A DNA stretch of 64,000 bases, from assembly GCA_041742965.1 (NCBI GenBank), contig JBGTNQ010000004.1:70241-134240 (forward strand). Direction: 5' to 3'. The notes under the pieces were generated by a model. The model worked only from the letters and a program-made list of their open reading frames with translations, had not been told where the DNA came from and searched no databases. Positions 1,075-52,081 of this stretch are shown here, one piece after another. Position numbers and translations under genes: made by a program. Positions within the stretch are counted from its first letter, which is position 1. The number at the start of each line of letters is the position of its first letter. The stretch comes from Minisyncoccia bacterium. Lineage in GTDB: Bacteria > Patescibacteriota > Minisyncoccia > Phycocordibacterales > Zambryskibacteraceae.

Positions 1075-1092
1075 TGCGGGTAGGGAGAATCG
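1075..1092. repeat. 18-nt direct duplicate of the tRNA-Gly 3' end (TGCGGGTAGGGAGAATCG)
   Basis: Identical to 1211-1228 (3' acceptor/T-stem strand of the minus-strand tRNA-Gly); lies 118 bp downstream of the tRNA. Confidence 0.8.
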
Positions 1093-1210
1093 GTCACAAC
1101 TACTAGCTCGTCGTCACTCGCCAATGTTGCGACCCCGCCTCGCGGTTTCGCCCACTGGCAAAACATCGCTCCGGCCTTCGATTCTCCACGCAAAATAAGA
1201 AGTTATTTTG
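1093..1210. repeat. tRNA-linked repeat, copy A (GC-rich core GCGACCCCGCCTCGCGGTTTCG)
   Basis: GC-rich insert between tRNA-Gly and its 3' duplicate; the core matches copies at 1391-1408, 46447-46465 and 51573-51596. Confidence 0.6.
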
Positions 1211-1384: not shown

Positions 1385-1448
1385 AAAATCTCACGACCCT
1401 GGCTCGCCATTTTTTCTACTGAAAAAATATGGCTCCGCCCTGCACAAA
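1385..1448. repeat. tRNA-linked repeat, copy D (core TCACGACCCTGGCTCGCC, 1391-1408)
   Basis: Downstream of tRNA-Arg(TCG) and its terminator; its reverse complement aligns with copy C (CGAGCC(A/G)GGGTCG(T/C)GAGATTTTTC). Confidence 0.5.
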
Positions 1449-1482
1449 CCCCAAAAAAGCAAAGAAATTTGCTTTTTTGGGG
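1449..1482. terminator. bidirectional intrinsic terminator after tRNA-Arg(TCG)
   Basis: Perfect 15-bp stem CCCCAAAAAAGCAAA/TTTGCTTTTTTGGGG with GAAA loop, U-runs on both sides. Confidence 0.6.
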
Positions 1483-1486
1483 TTTG

Positions 1487-1558
1487 TGCACCCGGAGGGA
1501 CTCGAACCCCCAACGACAGTTCCGAAGACTGTTGTGATATCCATTTCACTACGGGTGC
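1487..1558 (-). tRNA. tRNA-Arg (anticodon TCG)
   Basis: Reverse complement GCACCCGTAGTGAAATGGATATCACAACAGTCTTCGGAACTGTCGTTGGGGGTTCGAGTCCCTCCGGGTGCA; anticodon stem ACAGT/ACTGT with loop CTTCGGA. Confidence 0.75.
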
Positions 1559-1638: not shown

Positions 1639-3123
1639 ATGATATTCAAGATGAAAGACTTATTTCCCATACCAGAAACTGTTTCACGAGTAACAGAAAC
1701 CTTAGAAAAAGCGGGTTTTGAGGCATATCTCATAGGTGGATGTGTCCGTGACCTTTTTCTAGGTAAAACCCCAAAGGATTGGGATGTGACAACAAACGCC
1801 AAACCGGATGAAATAACAGGGTTGTTTCCAAAAACATTTTATGAAAATGAGTATGGGACAGTCGGGGTGGTAAACGAGGACGAAAAAGACCCAGCTTTAG
1901 AAATTGTTGAGGTAACCCCGTATCGCACAGAAAGTGAGTATAGCGACAGCCGAAGGCCAGATAGTGTATCCTTTGACGCCACCCTGGAAGACGACCTGAA
2001 GCGTAGGGATTTTACAATGAATGCCATAGCTTTAAACCTCTCAAAAAACAAGGTGGTGGATCCGTTTGGCGGGAGAGTAGACCTCCAAAAAGGGCTAATT
2101 AGGGCGGTGGGAGAGCCGAAAAAGCGTTTTAGTGAGGATGCGCTTAGAATGCTTCGGGCAATTAGACTTCACGCAGAACTTGGTTTTACTATAGAAGAAA
2201 AAACTAAAGAGGGAATAAAAGACAGTGCAGAGTTATTGAAAAAAATTGCAAAAGAAAGAATCAGGGATGAATTCATAAAAACCCTAATGTCGGAAAATCC
2301 AATGGAAGCCATCGCAGTGGCTCAAAATTTAGGTGTACTGGAGTTTGTGGTGCCTGAGCTACTAGATGCCATAGGCATAGAGCAAAATCAAGCTCATGCC
2401 TTTGATGTATGGACGCATCTTTTAAAATCCCTACAACATTCAGCGGATAAAAAATGGCCAATCCACATACGCTTAGCAGCTCTTTTCCATGATATTTCCA
2501 AACCAGAGACTCGTAGATGGTCAAAAGAGAAGGAAGAATGGACATTTTATGGCCACGAGGTTGTCGGTGCCAGAAAAACAGAGGCGATACTAAAAAATCT
2601 AAAATTTCCAAATGAACTTGTAACAACAGTAGTTAAACTCGTAAGGTGGCATATGTTTTTTTCCGACACTGAACAAATCACTCTTTCGGCAGTCAGGAGA
2701 CTAATATCAAATGTTGGTAAGGAAAATGTTTGGGACCTTATGAACCTACGAGTATGCGACCGTATAGGGACTGGAAGACCCAAAGAAAACCCATATCGCT
2801 TAAGAAAATACCAATCAATGGTGGAGGAGGCGATGAGAGACCCTGTTTCAGTAGGAATGCTAGCCATTGACGGCAAAGACATTATGGATATAGCCAAGAT
2901 ACCAGCAAGTCCCAAGATTGGCCAAATACTTCACGCACTTCTTGAAGAAGTTTTGGAAAACCCTGAGTTGAACAAAAAAGATATTTTATCCAAAAAAGCT
3001 ATAAAGCTGGCCATATTTTCAGAAGAAGAGCTAAAAGAAAGGGGGGATTCTGGGAAAGAAAAGAGGGAAGAGGAGGAGGAAAAGATACTCAAAACAATCA
3101 GAGGTAAGTACGGAGTTCAATAA
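1639..3123 (+). CDS. cca: CCA-adding tRNA nucleotidyltransferase (HD domain-containing)
   Basis: 494 aa; N-terminal GGCVRDLFLG...DWDVTT nucleotidyltransferase motif and HD-domain histidines; strong RBS AGAGGGGAG upstream. Confidence 0.85.
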   Translation: MIFKMKDLFPIPETVSRVTETLEKAGFEAYLIGGCVRDLFLGKTPKDWDVTTNAKPDEITGLFPKTFYENEYGTVGVVNEDEKDPALEIVEVTPYRTESEYSDSRRPDSVSFDATLEDDLKRRDFTMNAIALNLSKNKVVDPFGGRVDLQKGLIRAVGEPKKRFSEDALRMLRAIRLHAELGFTIEEKTKEGIKDSAELLKKIAKERIRDEFIKTLMSENPMEAIAVAQNLGVLEFVVPELLDAIGIEQNQAHAFDVWTHLLKSLQHSADKKWPIHIRLAALFHDISKPETRRWSKEKEEWTFYGHEVVGARKTEAILKNLKFPNELVTTVVKLVRWHMFFSDTEQITLSAVRRLISNVGKENVWDLMNLRVCDRIGTGRPKENPYRLRKYQSMVEEAMRDPVSVGMLAIDGKDIMDIAKIPASPKIGQILHALLEEVLENPELNKKDILSKKAIKLAIFSEEELKERGDSGKEKREEEEEKILKTIRGKYGVQ

Positions 3124-3183
3124 TCCGCACACCAACTTTCTCACGGTTTCTACAAAAATATAAGGACAAAGTTGGTGTGCGGA
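3124..3183. repeat. perfect 16-bp inverted repeat hairpin (TCCGCACACCAACTTT ... AAAGTTGGTGTGCGGA) right after the cca stop
   Basis: Read directly; 28-nt spacer; shares the CCGCACAC(C/T)AA(C/T)TT motif with 3471-3490, 3765-3784 and 5056-5068. Confidence 0.8.
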
Positions 3184-3470
3184 TAAACACAAAGACCGCA
3201 GAGCAGTTGCGGTGCTTGCGGCCTTAGGCGAAAGGGCCGCTCAGTTAGGAATGAAAAGGTGATATATCCGATAAAACAAAAAAATAACTAGGTTGGTGAT
3301 ATATGATTATCCTTCACGCTCCAGACCAAGCTGGTCTCTCGCAGAGTTCGAACTCTTGAAAGAACTATTGCTCAGAAATTTGTCCTTGAACTTCCTTCTG
3401 TGCTTCTGGTGAAAGTATATCACCTATAAAGGACATTGAAAATAAAACTGTGGATATCTAATTGTCCTTT

Positions 3471-3784
3471 ACCCGCACACTAACTTTATTCAAAGATACT
3501 TTTACTTTCTTTTATTCTCTCCATTAACTGCCTTCTGGCCTGCCCACGCAATTTAAGCATAGATTCCCTATGACGCGCATCATTTTCCGCAGAATAAGCT
3601 TCATAATAAACGAGGCAATACGGCCTTTTGTTTTTTGTAGAAACTACAAGCCCGCTGTTATGTTCTATTAATCGCCTTTTTAAGTTATTAGTTGAACCTA
3701 TATACAACTCGTTAACCTTTCTTGCTTTCAATACATATACATAGAACATAACAAAATAAAGTTAGTGTGCGGGTCAAGGCTATT
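3471..3784. mobile_element. GIY-YIG mini-element: 87-aa GIY-YIG gene bounded by perfect 20-bp inverted repeats ACCCGCACACTAACTTTATT (3471-3490) / AATAAAGTTAGTGTGCGGGT (3765-3784)
   Basis: The IRs are exact reverse complements and overlap the stop codons of the GIY-YIG gene and of xth. Confidence 0.5.
3486..3749 (-). CDS. GIY-YIG nuclease family protein (standalone, YhbQ-like)
   Basis: 87 aa; MFYVYVLKARKVNELYIGSTNNLKRRLIEHN is a canonical GIY-YIG motif. Confidence 0.8.
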   Translation of the reverse strand: MFYVYVLKARKVNELYIGSTNNLKRRLIEHNSGLVVSTKNKRPYCLVYYEAYSAENDARHRESMLKLRGQARRQLMERIKESKSIFE

Positions 3785-4541
3785 CAATTATAATCTCCAA
3801 AGGACAGTGGTCGGATCCGAAAACAGAGCTTAAAATATTGGCTTTTTTGAGCTTAGGGAGCATTTCTTTACTTATAAAAAAGTAGTCTATTCTCCAACCA
3901 ACATTCCTGTCTCTAGCAAATGTTTTCATATCCCAATATGTATATGCTTCTTTTTTTTCTGGGAAAAGGTGCCGAAAGGTGTCTATATATCCCTTATCAA
4001 CAACCTTATCAATCCAAGCTCTTTCCTCTGGCAAGAACCCAGTATTGGTCTCATTTTCTTTTGGTCTAGCTAGATCCATTTCCTGATGGGCAGTATTCAC
4101 ATCTCCACAAAATATAACTGGTTTATGTTTGCGTAGCTTTTCAATGAATTTTAAAAAATCGTCGTAAAACTTAAGTTTATAAGCCAGGCGCTCTGGTCCA
4201 CCGCCACCGTTAGGGAAATAGACATTTAATAGAAAAAAATTTTCAAACTCCAAACCCACGATTCTACCTTCTGGGTCTTTTTCTTTACCAATTCCATAAA
4301 AAACATCTAGTGGTTTCTCTTTTGTATAAATAGCTGTTCCGCTGTAGCCCTTTTTTACCTCTGAGTGATTGAAATATGAATAATAGCCTGCAGGGTTACG
4401 GACCTCCTCGGGCAACTGATCAGGATGTGCCTTGGTCTCTTGAATACAAAAGATATCTGAGCTGTCATTTACCAGCCACTCAAAGTGACCCTTTTTGTGC
4501 ACTGCTCGCAAGCCATTAACATTCCAACTGATGATACGCAT
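3780..4541 (-). CDS. xth: exodeoxyribonuclease III
   Basis: 253 aa; MRIISWNVNGLRA N-terminus and a C-terminal SDHCP motif typical of the ExoIII/APE family. Confidence 0.9.
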   Translation of the reverse strand: MRIISWNVNGLRAVHKKGHFEWLVNDSSDIFCIQETKAHPDQLPEEVRNPAGYYSYFNHSEVKKGYSGTAIYTKEKPLDVFYGIGKEKDPEGRIVGLEFENFFLLNVYFPNGGGGPERLAYKLKFYDDFLKFIEKLRKHKPVIFCGDVNTAHQEMDLARPKENETNTGFLPEERAWIDKVVDKGYIDTFRHLFPEKKEAYTYWDMKTFARDRNVGWRIDYFFISKEMLPKLKKANILSSVFGSDHCPLEIIIE

Positions 4542-4638
4542 TCCTATAGCTTATAGTCTTTGCTTATTGGATGCCAGCTACCGAAGCAAACAAAAAAACG
4601 CCCCTCGACAAGCTCAGGGCGTTTTTGAGAGAACCCTC

Positions 4639-4989
4639 TCAGGGGGCGGGAATCGAGGGGTTATAAGGAAGATACTTCCGGCCAATTGAGAACTCTTTCG
4701 TCTCAGCACTTGAATCAACCTCAGACAACAGGGAGACGAAAAACATTCTGAACCTACCACCCCGAGATGCGGGGACTCTTGGTTCGGTCTCCACTCGACA
4801 CCACCAAAAGTTGTGACCATCCTTGAGCATCCTCTCTTGGTGTGGAGTAAGTGAGTTCCGAAGAACAAGCAGGGTCTCACCATCTTCATCGTGGCACTTT
4901 GCTTGCCACTGCGTTTTGTTTGGGTGACTATGATTCACCCCGACCTCGAACTTCAGGGCGATGGTCATGCCTTTGTATACAATCGGCAT
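4639..4989 (-). CDS. hypothetical protein in a locally GC-elevated segment
   Basis: 116-aa ORF with no recognisable motifs; surrounding sequence (about 4560-4990) is visibly GC-richer than its neighbours. Confidence 0.3.
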   Translation of the reverse strand: MPIVYKGMTIALKFEVGVNHSHPNKTQWQAKCHDEDGETLLVLRNSLTPHQERMLKDGHNFWWCRVETEPRVPASRGGRFRMFFVSLLSEVDSSAETKEFSIGRKYLPYNPSIPAP

Positions 4990-5064
4990 AAATTAACTCC
5001 TCTGTATAGATGAACTGTCTCTACATAGAGACTCTCACGAAGAGACTATTTGTCAACCCGCACA

Positions 5065-5982
5065 CTAATTTCTCTTATTGTGAAATCTTTTGTGAACATC
5101 TTTCAAATGCCTGTCAGTGACATGCGTATAAATCTGAGTAGTAGCAATATTGGCGTGGCCTAAAAGCATTTGAACGGAGCGTAAATCGGCTCCATTTTGC
5201 AAAAGATCGGTGGCGAAGCTGTGACGAATAACATGTGGTGTAACTTTTTTTGAAATACCAGCCTTTATTGCGTATTTTGCCACCAATCGCTCAATCGAGC
5301 GTGGGGTGAGGCGCTTTTCTCCCTCTTGGTTTTTATTTTTGCCGAGATTTACAAACATCGGGTCATCCATATCTGTGCGTTTTGCCAAATATTCCCTAAT
5401 CGCTTCCTTGGCTTCTTCTGATAAAAATACAACCCTCACCTTGTCTCCTTTTCCTCGCACAGAAAATTCATCGCGAGAGAGGTCTAGCTCTCGGGATAGA
5501 GAACAGAGCTCTGAAACACGAAGTCCTGTCGAGAAAAAAAGTTCTAAAATAGCCCTATCTCTAAGACCCTGAATGGCTGTTGTATCTGGGGCCTTCATAA
5601 TACGAGAAAGTTCTTCAGAGGTAATGAGGTCCAGAGATCGCTCAGGCACTTTAGCAAGCTCAATTCTGTCTGGGGGAAGAGAGTCTATATTTCTTTTTGC
5701 CAAATATTTGAGAAAAGCGCGTAAAGCAATGAGATAGTAATTCTGAGTTCTTTTTTTTATGGTTTCTTTTCGTCCACCAATAAAAGCTCCTGACTCTTTA
5801 CGATTAAGCCATAGACGATACTCGCGAATACGGTCGTCGGTAATATCTTTTGGGTCAGTGAGCTCTGTATTATTGAGAAAAGTAGTGAGATATCTGTCGT
5901 AATTCTCAATTGTTTTGAGACTTCGCCCACGAGAAACCTCCATATCTTCTAAAAATTGACGTTTAAGTTCAGGAAGTTTCAT
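5065..5982 (-). CDS. xerC: tyrosine recombinase XerC/XerD family
   Basis: 305 aa; N-terminal core-binding domain and C-terminal HVIRHSFAT...LLGH...TQIYTH catalytic motifs (R..HxxR..Y). Confidence 0.8.
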   Translation of the reverse strand: MKLPELKRQFLEDMEVSRGRSLKTIENYDRYLTTFLNNTELTDPKDITDDRIREYRLWLNRKESGAFIGGRKETIKKRTQNYYLIALRAFLKYLAKRNIDSLPPDRIELAKVPERSLDLITSEELSRIMKAPDTTAIQGLRDRAILELFFSTGLRVSELCSLSRELDLSRDEFSVRGKGDKVRVVFLSEEAKEAIREYLAKRTDMDDPMFVNLGKNKNQEGEKRLTPRSIERLVAKYAIKAGISKKVTPHVIRHSFATDLLQNGADLRSVQMLLGHANIATTQIYTHVTDRHLKDVHKRFHNKRN

Positions 5983-46355: not shown

Positions 46356-46368
46356 CAAAGCGTGAAGA

Positions 46369-46393
46369 AAATCTCCCCTGCGGGAGATTTTTA
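46369..46393 (+). terminator. intrinsic terminator after tRNA-Lys
   Basis: AAAATCTCCC-CTGC-GGGAGATTTT: perfect 10-bp stem with A/T flanks. Confidence 0.7.
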
Positions 46394-46475
46394 GCTTTTG
46401 CGAGGCGCAGTGATGTTTTTGTTTGAGCGAAGCTCAAGGCAAAAACCACGAGCCGGGGTCGCGAGATTTTTCCGT
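46394..46475. repeat. tRNA-linked repeat, copy C (core CACGAGCCGGGGTCGCGAG, 46447-46465)
   Basis: Its reverse complement aligns over about 100 nt with copy B (51540-51668), including the terminator-proximal part. Confidence 0.6.
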
Positions 46476-51539: not shown

Positions 51540-51668
51540 CTTTTGGCTAAAATTTTCGCAAGGGGTGGGGTTTCGCGACCCCGGCTCGCGGTTTCGTGTG
51601 CTCACGAAACAACGCTCCGCCCAGCACAAAAGCAAAAAATCCCGCGCAGGCGGAATGTTTTACTTTTG
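51540..51668. repeat. tRNA-linked repeat, copy B (core TCGCGACCCCGGCTCGCGGTTTCG, 51573-51596) plus a terminator-like hairpin next to the tRNA
   Basis: Downstream of the minus-strand tRNA-Arg(GCG); aligns with reverse-complemented copy C. Confidence 0.6.
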
Positions 51669-51745: not shown

Positions 51746-52009
51746 TTACTTGGCTATTTTAACATAACCATCTAAAATCATTTTTTCTATATAATCCTTC
51801 CTTTTCAGCTTTTTAAGGCGGTTTTCAATTTGTCTAGCAACCCCAAGGGAGGCGACTTCTTGTTTTAATACTAATCTTGGTTCGTGCATATTTCTTGTTG
51901 TTTGCGTGTGTCCGTTTAGGTGTTGTTTTAATCTTCGTTCCAAATTAGAGGTGCTTCCAATATAAAGCTTACCACTCTTGTCTCTAAGTATATAAATGTA
52001 TGACTTCAT
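51746..52009 (-). CDS. GIY-YIG nuclease family protein (second copy)
   Basis: MKSYIYILRDKSGKLYIGSTSNLERRLKQH; the ORF track extends to an upstream in-frame Met at 52027. Confidence 0.75.
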   Translation of the reverse strand: MKSYIYILRDKSGKLYIGSTSNLERRLKQHLNGHTQTTRNMHEPRLVLKQEVASLGVARQIENRLKKLKRKDYIEKMILDGYVKIAK

Positions 52010-52017
52010 GTTTGTTA

Positions 52018-52081
52018 TCCTATCCACCCCGACGTTAAAGTCGGGGAGCCGACCACGGCGTCGGCTTTGAACGATGGGAGC
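52018..52081. repeat. degenerate duplicate of the tRNA-Arg(GCG) 5' segment, interrupted by a 39-nt GC-rich double hairpin
   Basis: TCCTATCCA + [CCCCGACGTTAAAGTCGGGG AGCCGACCACGGCGTCGGC] + TTTGAACGATGGGAGC versus the tRNA region TCCTATCCATTGAACGATGGGAGC (51717-51740). Confidence 0.7.

What the first reader, a model, noticed from the sequence alone, without database searches (positions are those of the whole stretch)
3124..5074. GIY-YIG gene bounded by perfect 20-bp inverted repeats; the same 13-nt motif recurs at the 3' ends of cca, xth and xerC
ACCCGCACACTAA(C/T)TT occurs at 3471-3490, inverted at 3765-3784, and again at 5056-5068. A related perfect 16-bp hairpin (TCCGCACACCAACTTT) sits at 3124-3183. 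The 87-aa GIY-YIG gene lies exactly between the perfect IR pair, and every motif copy overlaps or abuts a stop codon. The adjacent tyrosine recombinase (5065-5982) raises the possibility of Xer-recombined dif-like modules (as described for pdif modules on Acinetobacter plasmids). Alternatively the motif is a REP-like terminator element and the GIY-YIG gene a homing-nuclease-type passenger. The region 3190-3470 is additionally rich in hairpins and short inverted repeats.
Basis: partly seen in the sequence, partly recalled or inferred. Interest (0 to 1): 0.65.

Follow-up and report, generated by a model that had tools for sequence, protein, structure and literature searches.

The report
GIY-YIG nuclease gene inside its hairpin repeat
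A 300-bp insertion carries a tiny GIY-YIG nuclease gene enclosed by an inverted repeat that recurs around hundreds of related genes in candidate-phyla-radiation (CPR) bacteria; it looks like a new variant of the recently described Ssn nuclease/hairpin-repeat systems and has nothing to do with the neighbouring Xer recombinase.

Summary
The repeats are real and non-random: 5 copies against 0.15 expected, all within window 3123-5072. One copy was misplaced by 10 nt in the finding.

- **Module.** An 87-aa single-domain GIY-YIG gene (3486-3749, minus strand) lies inside a 25-nt inverted repeat.
- **Insertion.** The closest syntenic relative lacks a 300-bp block, CCGCACAC...GTGTGCGG (3473-3772). In its place is the apex of a small hairpin just after xth. 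The 58-bp gene-less hairpin (3125-3182) is also specific to this genome.
- **Family.** In 54 of 78 homologous loci, mostly Patescibacteria, the gene is flanked by an inverted repeat; most arms share the outer core ACCC(G/C)CACAC(C/T)AA. Other loci carry the hairpin just downstream of the gene.
- **Gene-less copies.** Hairpins with the same core are scattered in metagenomes. One sits in frame inside a cca ortholog.
- **Closest known system.** This is the Ssn family (Chenal 2025): small GIY-YIG single-stranded-DNA nucleases flanked by their own hairpin repeats. The catalytic cores are homologous (hhalign 99%), but the canonical Ssn motif is absent and the C-terminal tail differs.
- **Xer/dif idea.** Not supported. 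xerC keeps its place in relatives that lack the motif, and only 3 of 81 loci have a Xer nearby.

Verdict: a new variant of a known kind. The mechanism is inferred, not shown.

The parts
3473..3772 (-). Inserted module: GIY-YIG gene plus its inverted repeat, bounded by CCGCACAC...GTGTGCGG
   Evidence: It is absent from the syntenic relative L086 (Xth 86% identical). There, a perfect 9-bp hairpin CTTGACAGA-TTT-TCTGTCAAG follows the xth stop. Flanking non-coding DNA is about 95% identical on the right side (boundaries set by eye).
3486..3749 (-). 87-aa single-domain GIY-YIG nuclease ORF
   Evidence: Pfam PF01541, E 1.6e-13. AlphaFold2 pLDDT 95.4 with a GIY-YIG fold, nearest to UPF0213, the SLX1 nuclease domain and the I-TevI catalytic domain. 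The residues invariant across the family (Y3, Y5, Y16, G18, R26, H30, E62) are all present.
3755..3779 (.). Repeat arm on the 5' side of the gene (on the gene strand CCTTGACCCGCACACTAACTTTATT). The outer 7 nt are the old host hairpin stem.
   Evidence: 25 nt, 96% complementary to 3466-3490. The single-stranded-DNA minimum-energy fold of 3460-3785 pairs the two arms, z -6.95.
3466..3490 (.). Repeat arm on the 3' side of the gene. It contains the GIY stop codon (3486-3488).
3123..3184 (.). Gene-less hairpin copy. The element proper is 3125-3182 (CCGCACACCAACTTT...AAAGTTGGTGTGCGG), with 17-20-bp arms and a 22-28-nt loop.
   Evidence: L086 has an unrelated AT-rich spacer of about 40 bp at this spot, and L087, L089 and L090 have essentially nothing. 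Near-identical arms occur as gene-less hairpins in metagenomes, for example L094 and L123.
5056..5072 (+). Solo arm (ACCCGCACACTAATTTC) overlapping the xerC stop codon. Probably a relic terminus.
   Evidence: 15 of 17 matches to the arm. The TGTGCGGG part is absent at the same junction in the relatives with Xth 89% and 75% identical (L175, L090). No partner arm is present and the local fold is no better than shuffled sequence.

Best explanation
Window 3473-3772 is a small, insertion-type module. It consists of an 87-aa GIY-YIG nuclease gene enclosed in the loop of a long hairpin formed by its own inverted repeat. The outer core of that repeat, (A)CCCGCACAC(T/C)AA, is the motif shared across this nuclease family.

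The module belongs to a very large, mainly Patescibacteria family. That family is a divergent relative of the Ssn system (SsnA plus NTS/SRM repeats).

Most likely mechanism, which is inferred:
1. When the DNA is single-stranded (replication, repair or uptake), the two arms pair.
2. The nuclease recognises the conserved base of the stem and nicks nearby.
3. Host repair or recombination then copies the module, or gene-less hairpin derivatives, into other single-stranded structured sites. These sites include hairpin apexes after genes, tRNA gene ends and gene 3' ends.

The gene-less hairpin 3123-3184 and the solo arm 5056-5072 are non-autonomous or relic copies of the same repeat. The neighbouring XerC is an unrelated housekeeping gene.
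For: **Shown**
1. The repeat is real and confined to 3123-5072.
2. The closest syntenic relatives lack both the module and the hairpin. In L086 the insertion point is the apex of a pre-existing hairpin.
3. In 78 testable homolog loci from different species genomes, 54 have flanking inverted repeats scoring at least 12 and 41 score at least 16. Arms paired across different loci reach those scores in 9% and 2.3% of cases.
4. The outer core is conserved in most of those arms, while inner arm sequence varies between loci yet stays complementary within a locus.
5. Core density is 2.22 per kb within 100 bp of the gene and 0.059 per kb elsewhere.
6. At least eight further loci carry one or more MITE-like hairpins with the same core directly downstream of the gene.
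7. Metagenomes hold 54 distinct gene-less short-loop hairpins with this core, and none has a GIY gene in the fetched flank. One is read through in frame inside a 512-aa cca ortholog.
8. In other loci the module sits at a gene end that has been duplicated: tRNA 3' ends in L007, L052, L055, L068 and L071, and about 80 bp of the xerC 3' end in L067.
9. The protein core is homologous to proteobacterial proteins flanked by canonical Ssn repeats: BLASTP 38% identity, E 2e-14, and hhalign 99.1%.

**From the literature.** Ssn proteins are site-specific nucleases that cut only single-stranded DNA, and their genes are flanked by their own hairpin repeats (PMC11893778).
Against: - No biochemistry exists for this clade. 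Single-stranded-DNA cleavage and motif recognition are extrapolated from proteins that are only 38% identical in the core and have a different C-terminal third.
- The published Ssn-related motif pattern is absent: 0 hits in the window, and 3 non-adjacent hits in 436 kb of family loci.
- Each arm here is not a hairpin by itself, unlike NTS.
- A GIY-YIG domain cannot rejoin DNA, so any mobility must be indirect. No target-site duplication is seen at either window insertion.
- In one lineage the identical protein is always at the same def-fmt site in all 10 places shown (18 contigs carry it), which looks like stable vertical inheritance rather than mobility.
- In this 64-kb window there are only 5 copies, all within 2 kb, so the repeat is not an abundant REP-like element in this genome as far as can be seen.
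- Protein clade and core variant co-vary only weakly: 61.7% against 57.4% identity, with 14 of 500 permutations reaching the observed difference, not corrected for phylogeny.
Confidence: 0.6

Rival explanations
1. Free-standing homing endonuclease gene. The nuclease cuts a palindromic or structured target in genomes that lack it. Double-strand-break repair then copies the gene plus flanks, and the inverted repeat is the split recognition site.
For: - The module shows presence/absence at a conserved site.
- Displaced, diverged copies of the target gene's end lie next to the module in L067 (xerC) and at tRNA ends, which looks like co-conversion.
- There are weak hits to GIY-YIG homing endonuclease families.
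- T4 SegB is a GIY-YIG homing enzyme located in a tRNA gene cluster (PMC2330249, from the listing).
Against: - The empty site in L086 has no CCGCACAC motif, so the repeat arrived with the element rather than being a pre-existing target.
- The protein is only the 87-aa catalytic core, without the DNA-binding domain that homing GIY-YIG enzymes need.
- Gene-less hairpins with intact paired arms persist, including one inside a coding sequence.
Confidence: 0.2
2. RNA-level element. The arms form a long double-stranded RNA stem around the mRNA, or a post-gene hairpin. The stem serves RNase III processing, transcript stabilisation or termination, and the GIY-YIG gene is a passenger.
For: - Copies sit right after stop codons.
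- Arm complementarity is maintained although the inner sequence varies.
- A second conserved pairing sequesters the start codon in about a third of family members.
- Other tRNA genes in the window are followed by long trailer hairpins that re-pair with the tRNA 3' end.
Against: - There is no T-run and no terminator call at these hairpins.
- The outer core is conserved in sequence across phyla, which pure structure does not require.
- The motif is specifically enriched around this one gene family.
- The in-frame copy inside cca cannot be a terminator.
- The insertion polymorphism needs a DNA-level process.
Confidence: 0.12
3. Xer-recombined dif-like (pdif-type) module mobilised by the adjacent tyrosine recombinase.
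For: - A Xer-type recombinase (TIGR02225/TIGR02224 at about 1e-72; the archaeal XerA/integron-integrase model passes its curated cut-off) lies 1.3 kb away, with a motif copy at its stop codon.
- The module is flanked by inverted sites.
Against: - xerC occupies the same syntenic position in relatives that lack the motif between xerC and cca.
- 78 of 81 family loci have no Xer within 3 kb.
- The arms lack the 11-6-11 dyad architecture (inspection).
- Part of the xerC-side copy is simply xerC's own conserved last codons.
Confidence: 0.03

Closest known systems
Ssn family: SsnA with NTS/SRM repeats (Chenal et al. 2025, Nat Commun, PMC11893778)
   Same: - The protein is a single-domain GIY-YIG of about 90 aa, and its catalytic core is clearly homologous.
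- The gene is flanked on both sides by its own inverted, hairpin-forming repeat.
- Gene-less copies of the repeat occur elsewhere, mostly between genes.
- The architecture resembles an insertion sequence. A homolog flanked by canonical repeats (Azospirillum, between sufB and sufC) was verified here.
   Different: - The motif is different, ACCC(G/C)CACAC(C/T)AA, and the published Ssn-related motif pattern gives no hit.
- Each flank is one arm of a single long hairpin with the gene in its loop, rather than a complete short hairpin.
- The C-terminal third is a long K/R-rich helix instead of the W-rich KKWxRxWK tail.
- The hosts are Patescibacteria and other uncultured phyla, whereas the paper reports that family mainly in Pseudomonadati.
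- There is a strong association with tRNA gene ends.
- Cleavage of single-stranded DNA has not been tested for this clade.
REP/REPIN-RAYT systems
   Same: - One enzyme gene is bracketed by inverted copies of a repeat.
- The repeat also exists as gene-less hairpin doublets.
- In at least one lineage the gene is stably held at a single site.
   Different: - The enzyme is a GIY-YIG nuclease, not an HUH Y1 transposase, and it has no known strand-transfer chemistry.
- Copy number is low in this window, with 5 copies in 64 kb.
Free-standing GIY-YIG homing endonucleases (T4 Seg proteins, I-TevI)
   Same: - The catalytic fold is shared.
- The gene shows presence/absence polymorphism.
- The neighbourhood often includes tRNA genes.
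- Target ends are duplicated or replaced in some loci.
   Different: - There is no DNA-binding domain.
- The element carries its own inverted repeat.
- Gene-less hairpin derivatives exist.
Rickettsia palindromic elements and bacterial MITEs
   Same: The elements are short palindromic insertions found between genes and, in L123, in frame inside an essential gene.
   Different: - No target-site duplication was seen.
- A cognate small nuclease gene carries the same termini.

Membership tests
Ssn (SsnA/NTS; cd10448) | Single-domain GIY-YIG protein of about 90-100 aa | tested here: met
   The protein is 87 aa and PF01541 is the only substantial domain. The AlphaFold2 model has pLDDT 95 and a GIY-YIG fold.
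Ssn (SsnA/NTS; cd10448) | Placement in the cd10448 clade, or homology to SsnA | tested here: inconclusive
Against proteobacterial proteins flanked by canonical repeats, BLASTP gives 38% identity over 66 aa (E 2e-14) and hhalign gives 99.1%. However, the conserved W-rich C-terminal tail is missing. The nearest solved sequences are UPF0213 proteins, at E 3e-4.
Ssn (SsnA/NTS; cd10448) | Gene flanked 5' and 3' by the cognate inverted, hairpin-forming repeat | tested here: met
   The window has a 25-nt inverted repeat. 54 of 78 homolog loci have one as well.
Ssn (SsnA/NTS; cd10448) | Repeat matches the published Ssn-related motif pattern HGTCWYN(0-2)YYVSBRHN(0-5)WNVSBRGN(0-2)RNCYNB | tested here: not met
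   There are 0 hits in the window. In 436 kb of family loci there are 3 hits, none adjacent to the gene. The positive-control Azospirillum gene has 4 flanking hits.
Ssn (SsnA/NTS; cd10448) | Site-specific cleavage of single-stranded DNA only | not testable with these tools
   This needs purified protein and oligonucleotide assays.
Ssn (SsnA/NTS; cd10448) | Motif present in many copies in the host genome | tested here: inconclusive
   The window has 5 copies in 64 kb, all within 2 kb, and the rest of the genome was not available. Other metagenomic populations show many dispersed gene-less copies.
pdif / Xer-dif module | 28-bp sites with two 11-bp Xer-binding arms around a 6-bp spacer | tested here: not met
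   The arm plus its inner sequence shows 4 of 11 dyad matches. Only the copy inside the xerC coding end has partial symmetry, and that comes from coding sequence (inspection).
pdif / Xer-dif module | Association with a Xer recombinase | tested here: not met
   Only 3 of 81 loci have a Xer within 3 kb. xerC is syntenic in relatives without the motif.
REP/RAYT | HUH (Y1) transposase gene flanked by REP sequences | tested here: not met
   The enclosed gene is a GIY-YIG nuclease. Only the architecture is analogous.
GIY-YIG homing endonuclease | Catalytic domain joined to a separate DNA-binding domain, cutting a double-stranded homing site | tested here: not met
   The 87 aa cover only the catalytic core. 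The empty site lacks the motif. Cleavage itself is not testable here.
MITE / IS element | Terminal inverted repeats plus a target-site duplication | tested here: inconclusive
   Terminal inverted repeats are present. No direct duplication flanks 3473-3772 or 3125-3182 when compared with L086. At tRNA sites, 4-12-nt duplications of the tRNA end are seen.

The most novel reading that the evidence does not exclude
These modules may be a distinct, nuclease-only class of bacterial mobile element. An Ssn-like GIY-YIG enzyme would recognise its own long hairpin, and tRNA-acceptor-like stems, in single-stranded DNA. Host repair would then drive copying of the gene, or of gene-less hairpins, into hairpin apexes, tRNA gene ends and even coding sequences. 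The repair would also replace the target gene's end so that the host gene stays intact. That would give the Ssn-type systems a demonstrated mobility mode, and would give the candidate phyla radiation (CPR) its own REPIN-like repeat system.
Probability: 0.3. Interest if true: 0.8.

Novelty: new variant of a known kind. Interest (0 to 1): 0.6.

Why it matters
Ssn nucleases were described only in 2025. Their role outside Neisseria, and whether the repeat-gene-repeat unit is mobile, are open questions.

This locus and its family contribute four things:
- a second, sequence-distinct pairing of nuclease and repeat, spread across the candidate phyla radiation (CPR);
- clean filled-versus-empty sites;
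- gene-less derivatives, including an in-frame insertion in an essential gene;
- an unexpected link to tRNA gene ends.

Together these give concrete substrates for testing specificity and mobility. They could also add a new recognition sequence to the toolbox of single-stranded-DNA nucleases.

For annotation, the result warns against reading such inverted repeats next to a Xer gene as dif-like modules.

Tried and rejected
- **Rfam.** Gathering and permissive scans found only tRNAs. The hairpin gave meaningless sub-threshold microRNA hits.
- **Terminator scan.** No call was made at the motif hairpins.
- **Published Ssn motif pattern.** Absent from the window and from positions next to family genes.
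- **Defence and phage libraries.** No meaningful hits in PADLOC or PHROGs. Only one relative was found in IMG/VR, so there is no sign of a phage vehicle.
- **Exact-protein look-ups of window ORFs.** These failed until the database identifier was used.
- **Possible decayed GIY gene at 1149-1211.** A weak tblastn hit (E 0.002) suggested a remnant beside tRNA-Gly. It overlaps a different GC-rich repeat and lies on the opposite strand, so I treat it as spurious.
- **L175, the relative with the most similar Xth (89% identical).** Its contig ends in Nextera adapter sequence just inside xth, so it says nothing about the GIY site.
- **MAFFT alignment of filled against empty site.** The large gap was misplaced, so the insertion boundaries were set by eye.
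- **Identical GIY protein in different contexts.** The one cluster tested (P0028) was at the same site in all 10 places shown.
Full report
**Observation**

The window looks like a Patescibacteria (candidate phyla radiation, CPR) genome: about 40% GC, compact genes, and best protein hits to Paceibacteria-type genome bins.

The 17-mer ACCCGCACACTAACTTT, with up to 3 mismatches, occurs five times against 0.15 expected, all between 3123 and 5072. The sites are:
- 3123-3139(+) and 3168-3184(-), which form one hairpin;
- 3471-3487(+) and 3758-3774(-), which flank the GIY-YIG ORF;
- 5056-5072(+), at the xerC stop codon.

The flanking repeat is 25 nt at 96% complementarity (3466-3490 / 3755-3779), with a perfect 20-nt core. 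The finding placed one arm 10 nt too far right. The ORF (3486-3749, minus strand, 87 aa) ends inside one arm and starts 5 nt from the other. A second assembly of the same organism (L001) is identical over this stretch. As single-stranded DNA, the module folds with its two arms paired (z -6.95), and the short hairpin is very stable (z -7.7 and -9.2).

**The gene**

The ORF matches Pfam GIY-YIG (E 1.6e-13) and nothing else of substance. The AlphaFold2 model is confident (pLDDT 95.4). It resembles UPF0213 proteins, the SLX1 nuclease domain and the I-TevI catalytic domain. The family is highly conserved, and the residues invariant across it (Y3, Y5, Y16, G18, R26, H30, E62) are all present in the window protein. 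There are no defence-system or phage-family hits of note.

**The repeat belongs to the gene family, not to this locus**

Their depositor labels are mostly Patescibacteria groups, plus Omnitrophota, Elusimicrobia, Margulisiibacteriota and a few others.
- In 54 of 78 testable loci the gene is flanked by an inverted repeat scoring at least 12, and 41 score at least 16. Arms paired across different loci reach those scores in 9% and 2.3% of cases.
- Most arms share an outer core, ACCC(G/C)CACAC(C/T)AA. The inner arm sequence differs widely between loci but is complementary within each locus.
- The 3' arm usually overlaps the stop codon, and in several loci the 5' arm runs into the ATG.
- The core is about 38 times denser within 100 bp of the gene than in the rest of the 436 kb fetched. 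The remote copies number 23 against 4.5 expected.
- At least eight further loci lack flanking arms and instead carry one to three hairpin elements of about 100-170 bp with the same core directly downstream of the gene.
- A 73%-identical homolog between def and fmt in another genome has the same architecture.

**It is an insertion**

Relatives sharing the block rpsO-xerC-xth-cca lack the GIY gene. These are L086 (Xth 86% identical), L087/L088, L089 and L090/L091 (74-75%).

In L086 the xth stop is followed by a perfect 9-bp hairpin, CTTGACAGA-TTT-TCTGTCAAG, and then by non-coding DNA about 95% identical to the window. In the window the same stem bases (CCTTGAC...GTAAAGG) enclose 300 bp running from CCGCACAC to GTGTGCGG (3473-3772). 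The motif is therefore not part of the empty site. It arrived with the gene, at the apex of an existing hairpin.

The short hairpin has the same termini (3125-3182). It stands where L086 has an unrelated AT-rich spacer of about 40 bp and where other relatives have almost nothing. I saw no target-site duplication at either site.

The solo copy at the xerC stop consists of xerC's own last codons plus TGTGCGGG. That 8-mer is absent at the same junction in L175 and L090. I read it as a relic terminus, with less confidence than the other parts.

**Gene-less copies elsewhere**

A metagenome scan for CCGCACACYAA-N(6-36)-TTRGTGTGCGG returned 72 loci with 54 distinct hairpins.
- Many belong to a GTATAC-CCGCACACTAACTTT subfamily recovered repeatedly from a few samples.
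- Most are not inside a long ORF.
- None has a GIY homolog in the fetched flank, which averages 6.4 kb.
- In L123 a hairpin with arms nearly identical to the window's short hairpin lies inside a cca ortholog, and the 512-aa ORF reads through it. This shows that the hairpin alone can be inserted, in the manner of Rickettsia palindromic elements.

**Other insertion contexts**

About 21 of 81 loci have a tRNA or tmRNA gene within about 90 nt of the GIY gene. My rough expectation is near 1%.
- In L007, L052 and L055 (tRNA-Gly), L068 (tRNA-Trp) and L071 (tRNA-Phe), the last bases of the tRNA form the outer part of the 5' arm. A displaced copy of the tRNA 3' end follows the 3' arm.
- In L067 the module follows xerC, and a diverged copy of xerC's last 80 bp or so lies downstream.

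These look like replacements of the target end, as expected from repair-mediated copying. In contrast, one identical protein (P0028) sits at the same def-fmt site in all 10 places shown, so some copies are stably inherited.

**What is known**

Chenal et al. 2025 (PMC11893778) described the Ssn family.
- The proteins are about 94-aa single-domain GIY-YIG enzymes (cd10448) that bind and cut a hairpin repeat (NTS, or more generally SRM) only when it is single-stranded DNA.
- Their genes are typically flanked by that repeat.
- The authors note the insertion-sequence-like repeat-gene-repeat layout and the analogy with REP/RAYT systems.

I verified one canonical example. An Azospirillum plasmid gene between sufB and sufC is flanked by four exact matches to the published motif pattern. 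The window protein is 38% identical to it over the catalytic core (E 2e-14). Profiles of the two families align with 99.1% probability over 66 columns.

The differences are clear:
- The motif pattern has no hit in the window and none next to any of the 81 family genes.
- The C-terminal third of the proteobacterial proteins is a conserved W-rich tail, which the CPR proteins replace with a long basic helix.
- Each flank here is one arm of a single long hairpin, rather than a hairpin of its own.

I could not assign CDD families, so strict membership in cd10448 remains open.

**Interpretation**

The best-supported reading is a divergent Ssn-like nuclease with its own cognate hairpin repeat, present here as one gene-bearing copy, one gene-less hairpin and one relic arm.
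- Shown: the anatomy, the family-wide association, the insertion polymorphism, the gene-less derivatives and the protein homology.
- Inferred: recognition of the repeat by the protein, specificity for single-stranded DNA, and repair-driven spread.
- Classical homing (rival 1) explains the duplicated target ends. It does not explain the motif-free empty site or the missing DNA-binding domain.
- A purely RNA-level role (rival 2) does not explain the conserved core sequence, the association with this one gene family or the in-frame copy inside cca.
- The Xer/dif idea fails on synteny, on family-wide co-occurrence (3 of 81) and on site architecture.

Protein subclade and core variant co-vary only weakly.

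**Verdict**

This is a new variant of a recently described kind of system, with features that make its mobility and specificity directly testable: the gene in the hairpin loop, a distinct motif, the link to tRNA ends and clean empty sites.

Noticed in passing
window 3187-3442 (minus strand): The xth-cca spacer is conserved non-coding DNA in all syntenic relatives. It has a promoter-like site with a TG-extended -10 (3442->3414) and a terminator (3213->3195 plus a T-run). A consensus fold of 5 sequences gives 57 pairs, 24 of them with compensatory changes. No Rfam family matches, so this is a candidate unannotated small RNA of about 220 nt.
   Followed up: partly
window 1130-1173(-), 1394-1437(-), 51576-51619(-), ~46400-46462(+): A GC-rich structured element, CGGAGC-[variable hairpin]-GCGAGSCRGGGTCG, lies within about 120 nt downstream of 4 of the 10 tRNA genes, on the tRNA strand. 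The hairpin arms differ between copies but stay paired. No Rfam hit covered the two copies that were scanned.
   Followed up: partly
window 1075-1093 and 1210-1228: The last 19 nt of tRNA-Gly(tcc) are repeated 136 bp downstream, and the two copies bracket one copy of the GC-rich element. This looks like an insertion at the tRNA 3' end with duplication of the target.
   Followed up: no
window 51746-52080: A second, distant GIY-YIG ORF (51746-52009, minus strand; 40% identical to the first and closer to homing-enzyme N-terminal domains) ends 5 nt before an intact tRNA-Arg(gcg). It is preceded by a duplicated 5' part of that tRNA, which carries a 39-nt GC-rich insert in the D-loop.
   Followed up: partly
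window 4639-4989 (minus strand): A 116-aa ORF with 50% GC and no family hit has homologs at the same place in L090/L091 and L175, but is absent from L086, L087 and L089. It is a small variable gene between xerC and xth.
   Followed up: partly
window 3738-3752 with 3655-3668; also L002, L008, L015 and others: The start-codon region (GTTATGTTCTAT) is perfectly complementary to the codons of the conserved E-H-N motif about 85 nt downstream. The match is 9-16 nt in 24 of 76 family members, and the untranslated leader and the Asn codon change together. This may be a structure that sequesters the start codon.
   Followed up: partly
L052 1147-1158: The GIY homolog has an in-frame TGA exactly at the near-invariant Gly33 (EHNS-TGA-KV against EHNSGKV). 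This suggests a host that reads TGA as glycine (genetic code 25).
   Followed up: no
L123 1395-1440: A hairpin, ATCCGCACACCAATCC...GGATTGGTGTGCGGAT, is inserted in frame in a cca ortholog and adds about 19 residues. The 512-aa ORF is intact.
   Followed up: yes
window 1441-1490, 51630-51668, 46357-46400: tRNA genes are followed by CAAA... and a long hairpin whose 3' arm pairs again with the last 4-5 nt of the tRNA. One example is a 23-bp perfect stem at 1441-1490. The layout resembles GIY modules that use a tRNA 3' end as their outer arm.
   Followed up: no
L175 1165-1234: The contig of the relative with the most similar Xth ends in Nextera adapter sequence (CTGTCTCTTATACACATCT...). This is an assembly contaminant in the public record.
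   Followed up: no
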